Shown here piece by piece: positions 57,010 to 60,635 of a DNA stretch of 64,000 bases. The translations under genes were made by a program, and so were the position numbers. Positions within the stretch are counted from its first letter, which is position 1. Each line of letters opens with the position of its first letter. Source of the DNA: Myxococcota bacterium (GTDB lineage Bacteria > Myxococcota_A > UBA9160 > UBA4427); the NCBI GenBank assembly GCA_965250285.1, contig OZ252299.1, forward strand, positions 2,432,001 to 2,496,000, written 5' to 3'. Below the pieces are notes generated by a model. The model saw only the letters and a program-made list of their open reading frames with translations. It was not told the origin of the DNA and did no database searches.

Positions 57010-57134
57010 CTATTTTCTGCTAGGGTGCGTGTCAAGGCGACGCACACGGCCGGGTCGCCGTCGCCACATCGAAAGAGAGCGGCGCCGAAAAGGTGGTGAG
57101 GCGGCGTCTGCCGGCCGACTCGAGGAGAAGCTCC

Positions 57135-57926
57135 GTGAACCTCATCGACCTGACGCGCAGGCTCGACGCCGCCGATGCCGAACGCATCCCGAAGGTCGCG
57201 CGGCCAGCGGCGACGGTGCTCGTGCCCGAGGTGATCGTGCGGAACGACCCCGCCGTCGAAGGCGCGGAGCAACTCTGCGCCATCTTCGGGTGCACGCGGG
57301 AAGACCTGCCGGACGGCGAGGGCTGGGGCGACGAGCGCATCCAGATCAACACGCATCTCGGCACACACGTCGACGCCCCCCTGCACTACGGCACGACCTG
57401 TGAGGGGGCGCCCTCGCGGACCATCGGCGACATTGGGCTCGAGGAGCTCTACTGCGACGGCATCGTGCTCGACGTCCGTGAGGACGCGAAGCCCGGCGAG
57501 GGCATCTCGGTCGAAGCGCTGAAGCGCGCCGTCCATCGGAGCGGCGCCGAGATCGGGCCGGGCACCGCCGCGCTCATTCGCACCGGACAGGAGCGCTACG
57601 ACCTCGACGATCCCGAGTTCTACTGGTACCCGGGGATGACCCGTGCGGGCACCCTCTTCCTGGCTGAGCTCGGCGCCAAGGTGTTGGGGACGGACGCCGT
57701 GGGCTGGGATCGCCCCCTCATGGAGATGCGCCGCGCCTTTCAAGAGTCTGGCGATGCGAGCGAGATCTGGGACGGTCACTTCGCCGGGCGCGACCGCGAG
57801 GTCTTCATCGTGCAGCAGCTCGCCAACCTCGCCTCGGTGCCGACTTCCGGCTTCAAGGTCGGGTTTTTCCCGCTCGCCCTCGCCGGCCTCAGCGCATCGC
57901 CCGCGCGGGTCGTCGCGTTCGTCTGA
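57135..57926 (+). CDS. Cyclase family metal-dependent hydrolase (kynurenine formamidase-like)
   Basis: HLGTHVDAPLH motif, LIRTG and SASPARVVA; GAGGAG RBS before GTG. Confidence 0.92.
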   Translation: MNLIDLTRRLDAADAERIPKVARPAATVLVPEVIVRNDPAVEGAEQLCAIFGCTREDLPDGEGWGDERIQINTHLGTHVDAPLHYGTTCEGAPSRTIGDIGLEELYCDGIVLDVREDAKPGEGISVEALKRAVHRSGAEIGPGTAALIRTGQERYDLDDPEFYWYPGMTRAGTLFLAELGAKVLGTDAVGWDRPLMEMRRAFQESGDASEIWDGHFAGRDREVFIVQQLANLASVPTSGFKVGFFPLALAGLSASPARVVAFV

Positions 57927-57980: not shown

Positions 57981-59129
57981 ATGCCCGAGGTCAGCGAGAA
58001 AATTCCCGAACGACTCCGGCCGCGCGTCGACGCGGCGGTTGCCTGGTTCAATGACACCGAGCAGTCGGCGGGCGCCGAGTTCGAGGTGACGGGCATCCTC
58101 GACGCAGACGCGGCCCTGGCTGGCTCGAACGAGCTGCGGCTGATCCTCTGCGGCGGCGACCGATGCGAGCAGCGCTCGTTCACGGTCACCGGCAACGACG
58201 GTGCGTGGGCGGTCGCGTTCGCCGAGAACGCACCGACCCCTCCAGAGGGGCAGCCCCAGGCCGAGCTCGACCCGCCGCCAGGCCCGCGACTCCGGTGGCT
58301 CGACGAAAAGCTCGGGCAGCACGCCTTCATCGTCCTGCTCTTCTACCGGGGCTTCTGGTGACCGCCCTGTCGCTCCGAGTTGCGGAGCTACGTTGAGCAA
58401 GGAGTCGTCGACCGCATCCGAAGCGCGGGCGGGGAGATCTACGCCATCTCGAGTGAACCGCAGCAGCTGGCCGACCGCGCCCATGACGACTGGGCGCTCG
58501 ACTTCGAGAACGTCGGCGACCCACATCAGGAAATCTCACGCACCTGCAGCGAACGCGGCTGGCTGACGCTCTACGCAAACCAGGGCAGCCTGGCGTTTCT
58601 GCAGCGGGGCGCGAGCTGGAAGATCGAGCATCCGAAGGGGTACTTTCAACCCGGGGTGCTAGCGGTGACACGCGAGGGACGCGTGCTGTACCGATGGCGC
58701 TCCGTGCCGTCGGCCGAGAACATGCAGGGAACGCTCGCGCGGCCCACCGCGAGGCACGCATGGGGTGCCATCGAGCGGGCGCTCGAAGCGGGAGGAGCGA
58801 TCGGCGACGCAGCGCTCGACGACGATCCCGAGGTCGACTCGAAGCCCGCACCGCGCCCCCTCTTCATTGCCGCCCTGTTGGCGAACGGATGGTTTCTTCG
58901 GGTCAAGTCGCTGGTGTACTCACCCGGCGCGAAGACGGGGGCCCAGCGCTTTCCGGCCCTGCTCGCGCGCTGGCTGCTCTTCTTCGCGTTCTGGGCCGTG
59001 GCGTTCGCGCTGCTTCCGATCCCGCCGGTCGCACTCGCCTTCGCGGGCTGGATCCTCTGGGTGCGACGAGACATCCGGCGAATGCTCGGTGGCGCGAGCG
59101 TGCAGAAGGAGCTGGTCCCGGAGCGCTGA
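57981..59129 (+). CDS. Probable selenoprotein: unknown N-terminal domain + AhpC/TSA-like (peroxiredoxin-like) domain with UxxC + C-terminal TM hairpin (382 aa, Sec127)
   Basis: In-frame TGA at 58359-58361 reads IVLLFYRGFW-U-PPCRSEL. The frame continues through GGEIYAISSE, NVGDP and QPGVLAV to the stop at 59129, and a SECIS-like hairpin follows the TGA. Confidence 0.85.
58372..58388 (+). promoter_or_regulatory. Putative bacterial SECIS element
   Basis: GCTCCG-AGTTG-CGGAGC hairpin. The stem starts 11 nt after the UGA, the loop is 16 nt after it, and the loop has G at position 2 followed by U. Confidence 0.7.
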
Positions 59130-59150: not shown

Positions 59151-60635
59151 ATGCCGCCGGATCCGACTCGCCCCATGCCCGCCCCGCCCGAAGAAGATGC
59201 ATCCCGGAGCGACGCGCATCGGCTGCCGCTTCGCACCAAGACAGCCTTCGGTGTAGGCGGCATCGCAGAGGGTGCACTCAGCATCGCGTTCTCGACGTTC
59301 GCGATGCTCTTCTATCGCAATCAGCTCGATCTCTCGGGCACCCTGGCCGGCATCGCGCTCACGATCGCGCTCGTGTTCGATGCGATCTCCGATCCGCTGG
59401 TCGGCTCGGTCTCGGACCGGGTGCGGACGCGACTCGGACGGCGTCACCCCTTCCTGTTCATTGCACCGATCCCGCTCGGTGCCTGTTTCACGGCGATCTT
59501 CATGCCGCCGGAGGGTCTCGGGACCGCGGGGCTGTTTCTCTGGCTGACGGGCTTCTCGATCCTGATGCGGACGTTCCTGACCTTCTATCAGGTGCCGCAT
59601 CTCGCGCTCGGAGCCGAGCTGTCGCCGAACTATCTCGAGCGGACGCGCGTCATGAGCCACAACGCGATCTACCAGCTCGTGGGCGGCGCATCGACGTTCT
59701 TCCTCGGCTGGACGTGGTTCGGATCGGTCGAGGGGGGCGTCGCATCACGCAGCGCGTTCGGCGTGATGGCAGCCGGCGTCGCGATCGCTTCGGCGCTGGC
59801 GATCCTGGCATCGGCGTTCTTCACCCGAGACCGGATCCCGACCCTCTACGTTCCGCCCGTCGATCATCACGGCTTCTCGATGGCGTCGCTGACCGCCGAG
59901 ATCGCGGACTGCCTCAGGAACCGCAACTACGTCATGCTCCTCCTGGGGCTCGTCTGCCTCGGCGCGATGGCCGGCCTGCGTGAGAACCTCACGAGCTTCA
60001 TGAACCTGTTCTTCTGGGAGCTCCCCGAAGACAAGATTCGGTGGATGGCCACGGCATCACCGCCGAGCTTCATCCTGGCGTTCATCGTGACCACCCGACT
60101 GCACGCGCGGATCGACAAGCGCGAGACGATGCGGGGCGCCATCGTCATCGTGATGCTGGCGGGCTTCCTGCCGGTCTTGTTTCGCTTCGTCGGCCTCTTT
60201 CCCGAGAACGGCTCGTCCGCCCTCTTCCCGCTTCTGCTCGCAAGCGTCTTCTGCTTCTACACGGGCGTGGCCATCCTCACCATCACCGTCATGTCGGCGC
60301 TCGCCGATGTCGCGGACGAGCACGAGCTCAGAACGGGGCGCCGGCAGGAGGGCATCTTCTACGCCGCCCGCACGTTCTTCGGGAAGGTCACGACAGCGAT
60401 CGGATCGCTGCTCTCGGGGTTCGGGCTCGATGTCATCGGATTCTCGGCTCACTCCGTGCCCGGCGAGGTGGCAACCGGGGTGATCACCGGCCTCGGCGTG
60501 CTCGACGCGGTGGTGCCCGCCGTGCCCGCCGTGCTGGCGATCTTCTTCTACAGCGCATACGGGATCGACAGACGCACGCACGACGAGATCCGCGCAGCGC
60601 TCGACGCCCGCGCTTCGATTGCCTCCGAGGTGTGA
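59151..60635 (+). CDS. MFS transporter, GPH/MelB-like (MFS_2)
   Basis: DAISDPLVGSVSDRVRTRLGRRHPF, ALGAELSPNYLERT and ADVADEHELRTGRRQEGIFY. Confidence 0.93.
   Translation: MPPDPTRPMPAPPEEDASRSDAHRLPLRTKTAFGVGGIAEGALSIAFSTFAMLFYRNQLDLSGTLAGIALTIALVFDAISDPLVGSVSDRVRTRLGRRHPFLFIAPIPLGACFTAIFMPPEGLGTAGLFLWLTGFSILMRTFLTFYQVPHLALGAELSPNYLERTRVMSHNAIYQLVGGASTFFLGWTWFGSVEGGVASRSAFGVMAAGVAIASALAILASAFFTRDRIPTLYVPPVDHHGFSMASLTAEIADCLRNRNYVMLLLGLVCLGAMAGLRENLTSFMNLFFWELPEDKIRWMATASPPSFILAFIVTTRLHARIDKRETMRGAIVIVMLAGFLPVLFRFVGLFPENGSSALFPLLLASVFCFYTGVAILTITVMSALADVADEHELRTGRRQEGIFYAARTFFGKVTTAIGSLLSGFGLDVIGFSAHSVPGEVATGVITGLGVLDAVVPAVPAVLAIFFYSAYGIDRRTHDEIRAALDARASIASEV

What the first reader, a model, noticed from the sequence alone, without database searches (positions are those of the whole stretch)
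58362..58395. SECIS-like hairpin at canonical distance from the UGA
Seen: a perfect 6-bp stem GCTCCG/CGGAGC closes an AGTTG loop. The stem starts 11 nt after the UGA, and can be extended by GT/AC past a C-T mismatch. Established: bacterial SECIS elements lie immediately 3' of the UGA within the coding sequence, with a G near the start of the apical loop. Inference: this is independent support for recoding rather than pseudogenisation, and the uncommon TTG Leu codon in the loop suggests RNA-level constraint.
Basis: partly seen in the sequence, partly recalled or inferred. Interest (0 to 1): 0.7.

Follow-up and report, generated by a model that had tools for sequence, protein, structure and literature searches.

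The report
Selenocysteine-insertion hairpin in peroxiredoxin-like gene
This small RNA hairpin sits just after an in-frame UGA codon, is kept by compensating base changes in related genes, and very likely makes the ribosome insert selenocysteine there, an ordinary signal in a protein family already predicted to contain selenium.

Summary
Confirmed. The stem 58372-77/58383-88 closes the loop AGTTG, 16 nt after TGA 58359-61. That TGA is codon 127 (W-U-P-P-C) of a 382-codon AhpC/TSA gene, 57981-59129. Alone, the hairpin is weak evidence (z -1.4); the comparative evidence is strong. Of 115 distinct homologues, 114 have TGA here, and 102 of these keep 6 of 6 pairs. The silent third base of Arg135 pairs with base +14 in 112 of 113, against 18-36% at control Arg codons. 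The loop Leu is TTG/TTA in 114 of 114, against 15% elsewhere in these genes. The one Cys homologue with DNA has a C-C mismatch mid-stem. The genome has selA, selB, selD and tRNA-Sec. The hairpin meets all four published bacterial SECIS criteria. It is not new: this same UPPCR family is in the 2008 GOS selenoprotein dataset, and this scan has noted Prx-like UxxC selenoproteins on other DNA (81 findings). Sec insertion and SelB binding are inferred, not shown.

The parts
57981..59129 (+). Full gene read through UGA, 382 codons: N-terminal domain (about 1-80), peroxiredoxin-like thioredoxin-fold domain (about 101-273), hydrophobic C-terminal helices (about 320-372)
   Evidence: (PF00578 33.9 bits, cut-off 26); GAGGTGG lies just upstream of the ATG
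58359..58361 (+). In-frame TGA, codon 127, first position of the UxxC motif; inferred selenocysteine
   Evidence: TGA in 114 of 115 homologues, TGT in 1; no other letter in the contigs laid
58368..58370 (+). Cys130 of UxxC; TGT in 86 of 114 against 32% at other Cys codons, a hint of a weak lower stem
58372..58377 (+). 5' arm of the SECIS upper stem (+11 to +16; codons Arg131, Ser132, Glu133)
   Evidence: Arg131 is CGC in 113 of 113
58378..58382 (+). Apical loop AGUUG (family consensus AGUUR), G at loop position 2 followed by U; predicted SelB contact
   Evidence: AGTTR in 112 of 114; Glu133 GAG in 112 of 113; Leu134 TTR in 114 of 114
58383..58388 (+). 3' arm of the upper stem (+22 to +27; Arg135, Ser136)
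58369..58391 (+). Whole hairpin with the 2-bp extension past the C-U mismatch (extension only partly conserved)

Best explanation
The hairpin is very likely a bacterial SECIS element that directs selenocysteine insertion at the UGA 16 nt upstream of its loop. By the established bacterial mechanism, SelB carrying Sec-tRNA-Sec would bind the stem-loop inside the coding sequence (the GU of the loop is the predicted contact) and deliver Sec to the UGA. The product would be one 382-residue protein with a U-P-P-C active site in a peroxiredoxin-like thioredoxin fold, likely a thiol/selenol oxidoreductase anchored by C-terminal hydrophobic helices. Shown here: the sequence, its conservation and covariation, the codon freezing and the Sec genes. 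Inferred: folding in vivo, SelB binding, Sec insertion and enzyme activity.
For: (1) All four criteria of the bSECIS model in PMC13188914 (Fig. 2 legend) are met: 5-nt loop, 6-bp stem, G at loop position 2, 16-nt spacing, -9.2 to -13.0 kcal/mol. (2) On 65 TGA homologues, 96.5% of cells pair, 38 cells show changes on both sides, and 0 of 500 shuffles reach either value; slid registers pair 26-59%. (3) In 114 homologues, pair +14:+24 is CG 60, UA 34, GC 13, UG 5, GU 1, unpaired 1; pair +13:+25 pairs in 102. (4) Base +24 is the silent third base of Arg135 and pairs with +14 in 112 of 113; three control Arg codons give 20/111, 27/107 and 35/97. (5) Leu134 is TTR in 114 of 114 against 15% pooled in the same genes and 4% in this genome; Arg131 is CGC in 113 of 113 against 43% pooled. 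(6) TGA followed by at least 5 of 6 pairs and an AGTTR loop in this register occurs at 6 of 126,692 TGA triplets of the genome; the 5 with 6 of 6 pairs are all PF00578 UxxC genes. (7) selB, selA and selD pass their cut-offs, and a TCA tRNA scores 62.6 bits on RF01852 (cut-off 47). (8) The Cys homologue L047 has a C-C mismatch mid-stem. (9) The longest exact DNA match to a 55%-identical paralogue is 47 nt, centred on the UGA and hairpin.
Against: The single-sequence fold is not significant. With 100 nt of downstream context the computed stem probability falls to 0.08 as longer helices compete. 12 of 114 homologues miss a pair, mostly the Ala132 group with G-G or G-A at +13:+25, and L122 keeps only 3 of 6. 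Only one close Cys homologue has DNA, and it still keeps the AGTTG loop and 5 of 6 pairs. Homologues are related, so the counts overstate independent events: parsimony gives about 10 changes at each base of +14:+24. The loop does not fit the model's optional pattern in which its first and last bases pair.
Confidence: 0.96

Rival explanations
1. The hairpin is a by-product of protein conservation: the amino acids after CxxC happen to give a stem in GC-rich DNA.
For: Four of six pairs rest partly on fixed residues (Arg131, Glu133, Arg135, Gly/Ser136). 8.6% of ordinary stops show a SECIS-like hairpin.
Against: Silent positions are frozen or covary. Twelve Cys-type genes with WCxxCxxEL have 1-4 pairs, and 11 use CTN. 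Homologue GC content spans 48-74%.
Confidence: 0.01
2. The TGA is a real stop: a pseudogene, or two genes with the second starting at TTG 58380, which would explain the conserved TTG.
For: Gene callers split it this way: many library hits end at residue 126 or start at 134.
Against: TGA holds in 114 of 115 homologues down to 38% identity, at the catalytic position. The loop codon is TTA, not a usual start codon, in 54 of 114. No Shine-Dalgarno-like run lies before the TTG. The split would cut the fold at its active site. Full-length Cys forms exist (L047, P0003).
Confidence: 0.01
3. UGA is read through with another residue (Trp, or Cys by a specialised UCA tRNA), the hairpin acting as a general read-through stimulator.
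For: SECIS-linked recoding variants exist (PMC10778597 passage); a Cys-inserting UCA tRNA is recalled, not checked.
Against: The only TCA-anticodon tRNA found is called SeC by ARAGORN and passes RF01852. selA and selD are present. TGA ends about 3091 long coding-like ORFs, so it is not reassigned genome-wide.
Confidence: 0.02

Closest known systems
Bacterial SECIS consensus model (as summarised in PMC13188914, section 5 and Fig. 2A legend)
   Same: In-ORF stem-loop just 3' of UGA; 3-9 nt loop; 4-16 bp stem; G in the first two loop positions, followed by U; 16-37 nt spacing; energy at or below -7.5 kcal/mol.
   Different: It sits at the minimum spacing (16 nt). The AGUUR loop does not have first and last bases that pair. 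No Rfam family matched.
Prx-like thiol:disulfide oxidoreductase selenoproteins (PF00578, UxxC; 'Prx-like' in PMC1088965, 'Prx-like 1' in PMC2398784, Table 1 of PMC13188914)
   Same: PF00578 above cut-off and UxxC motif. Clear members of this same subfamily (YRG[FL]WUPPCR, with the N-terminal domain and C-terminal helices) are in Dataset S1 of PMC2398784: 34 occurrences of UPPCR, 12 passages seen.
   Different: The three-part architecture is not among the four fusions in that paper's Figure S1, and I saw no separate name for it in the review's table.
Sec-containing peroxiredoxin (PxxxTxxU) and NCBIfam NF040769 SelL-related redox protein
   Same: Same fold class; best structural matches are peroxiredoxins and BCP (Z 13.8, rmsd 2.8, 140 aligned); weak NF040769 hit.
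   Different: Sec is in the first position of UxxC, not the peroxidatic TxxU position. NF040769 scores 21.4 bits against a cut-off of 120.

Membership tests
Bacterial SECIS | Immediately 3' of an in-frame UGA within the ORF, 16-37 nt to the apical loop | tested here: met
   16 nt; criterion
Bacterial SECIS | 3-9 nt apical loop and 4-16 bp upper stem | tested here: met
   5-nt loop, 6-bp stem; pair probability 0.93-1.0 in 17-60 nt windows
Bacterial SECIS | G in the first two loop positions, often followed by G or U | tested here: met
   AGUUG; +18 G in 113 of 114 and +19 U in 114 of 114
Bacterial SECIS | Folding energy at or below -7.5 kcal/mol | tested here: met
   -9.2 (core) to -13.0 kcal/mol; not significant against shuffles
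Bacterial SECIS | Structure conserved in Sec orthologues and relaxed in Cys forms | tested here: met
   the Cys side rests on one close and 12 distant genes
Bacterial SECIS | selA, selB, selD and tRNA-Sec in the genome | tested here: met
Bacterial SECIS | Binds SelB and is required for Sec insertion | not testable with these tools
   needs binding and reporter assays
Prx-like UxxC selenoproteins (PF00578) | PF00578 domain with UxxC and Sec/Cys pairing in homologues | tested here: met
   33.9 bits, cut-off 26; Cys in L047 and P0003; family in GOS Dataset S1
Sec peroxiredoxin (TxxU) | PxxxTxxU motif | tested here: not met
   the motif is FYRGFWUPPC; definition
NF040769 SelL-related redox protein | Score above the curated cut-off of 120 bits | tested here: not met
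   21.4 bits

The most novel reading that the evidence does not exclude
The RNA hairpin steers this protein's evolution. Residue 132 (Ser, Phe, Leu, Arg, Ala) changes together with the silent base of Arg135 and with residue 136 (Ser, Gly, Arg) to keep the stem, which amounts to a natural mutational scan defining an AGUUR-loop SECIS subtype shared by two PF00578 subfamilies, with one Sec-to-Cys loss caught as the stem breaks. The host protein would be an unnamed membrane-anchored selenoenzyme whose N-terminal domain, with invariant Cys57 and Cys62, serves as a built-in electron relay to the U-P-P-C site.
Probability: 0.3. Interest if true: 0.4.

Novelty: new member of a known kind. Interest (0 to 1): 0.17.

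Why it matters
It corrects an annotation: gene callers cut this family into a 126-residue piece and a C-terminal piece, so the intact selenoprotein is mostly missing from protein collections. It is also a clean example of an RNA signal overprinted on coding sequence, with covariation good enough for a family-specific SECIS model and for designing SelB-binding mutants. It does not change what is known about Sec decoding.

Tried and rejected
Folding against shuffles: not significant in any of four windows. Rfam: three chance-level matches, none relevant. fdh and selD as in-genome comparators: no in-frame stop in 14 PF04879 matches or in SelD. Co-occurrence with selA is uninformative because the trait is near-universal in both groups: 67 of 68 genomes in the window's family, and 37 of 40 gene carriers against 224 of 251 in the second family. 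Expression: no RNA holder listed. The four runs laid are contigs from one study and may be the source sample, so they are not independent. Viral contigs: no Cys-form pattern match. Tree test: joint parsimony was 13 against 10+10 for +14:+24 and 20 against 10+18 for +13:+25, but my fast-changing control pair also saved steps (59 against 43+31), so I use the tree only to show that pair types recur in separate clades. The single-sequence structure was poor (pLDDT 46) and was replaced by the alignment-based model. The N-terminal domain was not folded or searched alone, so its fold is untested. PDB sequence search gave only weak ResA-type hits. Paper searches with no hit. Gene neighbours (cyclase, MFS, TetR) recur only in the closest few loci, and many loci are short. 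DNA for the Cys protein P0003 was not obtained.

Full report
Observation. One search shows the hairpin exactly as described: TGA 58359-61, a 10-nt spacer, GCTCCG, loop AGTTG, CGGAGC, and a 2-bp extension past a C-T mismatch. Read with TGA as Sec, 57981-59129 is one 382-codon frame with FYRGFW-U-PPC at codon 127. It matches PF00578 at residues 115-187 above the cut-off. An alignment-based model (41 sequences, mean pLDDT 90.5) places a peroxiredoxin-like fold at about 101-273 (best Z 13.8, rmsd 2.8, 140 aligned). Upstream lies a small alpha/beta domain with invariant Cys57 and Cys62; downstream lie hydrophobic helices.

Chance. On its own the fold does not beat shuffles (z -1.40 at best of four windows). 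Among 3091 TGA stops that I classed as ordinary with a dicodon model, 265 have a loose SECIS-like hairpin, 11 have a 6-bp stem in this register and 2 also have an NGT loop. The precise form (at least 5 of 6 pairs, AGTTR loop at +17 to +21) follows 6 of 126,692 TGA triplets. The five with 6 of 6 pairs are this gene, its two paralogues and two other AhpC/TSA genes.

Machinery. selB, selA and selD each pass their curated cut-offs, and one TCA tRNA is called SeC by ARAGORN and passes RF01852.

Homologues. Searches of the window's family (68 genomes), a phylum sample (401), a second family centred on G443 (251; the record title of L050 names Pseudomonadales) and contig collections gave 128 stretches. 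Of 127 alignments covering codon 127, 115 were distinct; 114 have TGA and one has TGT. Identity runs from 38 to 82% and GC from 48 to 74%. I kept visibly damaged copies (L065, L069, L107) in the counts. The six stem pairs hold in 114, 114, 102, 113, 113 and 114 of 114. On the first 65 TGA rows, 96.5% of cells pair and 38 show two-sided changes, with 0 of 500 shuffles as high and slid registers at 26-59%; the tool warns that relatedness inflates this. The sharpest test is silent-site pairing: the third base of Arg135 pairs with base +14 in 112 of 113, while three other conserved Arg codons would pair in 20/111, 27/107 and 35/97. On a tree of 107 of the 115 rows built without the motif columns, the pair types recur in separate clades, about 10 changes per base. 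Codons under the hairpin are frozen: Arg131 CGC 113/113, Glu133 GAG 112/113, Leu134 TTR 114/114, against 43%, 59% and 15% pooled over the same genes. TTA in 54 of 114 rules out the reading that TTG is kept as a start codon.

Cys controls. L047, nested among Sec genes on the tree and from a genome that has selA, has CGC changed to CCC at codon 132, giving a C-C mismatch. Its stem probability is 0.03 against a median of 0.96 (96 of 114 above 0.5). It still keeps the loop and five pairs, which fits a recent loss; it is one case. Across the 68 family genomes the motif W-TGA-xx-C-xx-E-L used TTR in 105 matches (my count of the table) and CTN in 11. Nine of those 11 are a separate UPFC subfamily, most of which fold a hairpin in a shifted register. 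The Cys motif gave 24 matches: L047, 11 that I judged by eye to be chance or unrelated and dropped, and 12 thioredoxin-fold genes with 1-4 of 6 pairs, 11 of them using CTN.

Other UGA genes in this genome. All 8 PF00578 matches with an internal TGA, picked by HMM, have a stem of 6 bp or more with GU in the loop, 16-25 nt downstream. Eight further candidates picked by eye show the same; that pick saw the hairpins and is not blind.

Against. With 100 nt of context, equilibrium folding favours other helices (stem probability 0.08). Twelve homologues miss a pair. There are no expression or biochemical data.

Mechanism. From established knowledge (PMC10778597 passages; PMC13188914 passages and section 7 parts 1-2), bacterial SelB binds Sec-tRNA and the in-ORF stem-loop and delivers Sec to the adjacent UGA. 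This hairpin meets all four stated criteria. That SelB reads the loop GU is inferred from its conservation and from recall of the E. coli element; my search for a held paper on it found none.

What is known. Prx-like UxxC selenoproteins are described in PMC1088965 (passages) and listed as predicted in PMC13188914. In PMC2398784 (passages, Figure S1 text and a supplement search), Dataset S1 holds 34 occurrences of UPPCR, and the 12 passages I saw include clear members of this subfamily with its N-terminal domain. The family was therefore already predicted to be a selenoprotein in 2008. I found no paper on this subfamily's SECIS covariation, but most subscription papers, including the original bSECISearch paper, were not searched or read. 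Earlier notes of this scan report similar cases in other genomes and none in this genome.

Verdict. A real and unusually well-supported bacterial SECIS, confidence 0.96, and an ordinary one: new member of a known kind, interest 0.17.

Noticed in passing
G000:C1:4424435 (+) and 4544202 (+): Two paralogues of this gene, both with TGA and an intact hairpin. The first shares a 47-nt exact run with window 58339-58385, enough to break assembly contigs there in three runs.
   Followed up: yes
G000:C1: 1311786(-), 2320738(-), 2346508(-), 3754820(-), 3873825(+): Five more AhpC/TSA genes with UxxC. Two (UPYC type) use the same AGUUR loop and register; three use shifted GU loops.
   Followed up: partly
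G000:C1: 3573817(+), 3186092(-), 5740006(+), 121328(+), 3706377(+), 4930965(-), 3020228(-), 2261940(-): Eight further candidate selenoproteins with GU-loop hairpins: three AhpD/CMD-like (CxxU; two hit PF02627), two GrdB/PrdB-like, one deiodinase-like, two UGSC-type. Labels other than CMD are recalled from motifs. That makes at least 16 candidates, with no Sec-type formate dehydrogenase found.
   Followed up: partly
G000:C1:5312234-5313154 (-), L010: SelD is Cys-type with a CxxC motif and a long N-terminal extension, resembling the Ndh-SelD fusion described in PMC2398784.
   Followed up: partly
G000:C1:2333234 (-): In-frame TGA inside what looks like a PaiB/FMN-binding regulator (label recalled), at a probable Trp position and without a SECIS-like hairpin; likely a nonsense change.
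   Followed up: no
window 57981-58220: N-terminal domain with Cys57 and Cys62 invariant in 41 of 41 aligned sequences; no Pfam match and not covered by the listed fold matches.
   Followed up: partly
L047 (G013:C321:29000-33115); P0003: Two full-length Cys forms. L047 looks like a recent Sec-to-Cys change with a broken stem. P0003 has L-E-L-L-S after the motif, like the compensated L065 variant; its DNA was not seen.
   Followed up: partly
L118/L128 (G646:C1:4912596-4914841): Two copies of the gene in tandem, both with TGA and hairpin.
   Followed up: no
window 57093-57926 and 59151-60635: The gene lies between a putative cyclase (PF04199) and an MFS_2 transporter on the same strand, with a divergent TetR gene upstream; this layout recurs only in the closest loci.
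   Followed up: partly
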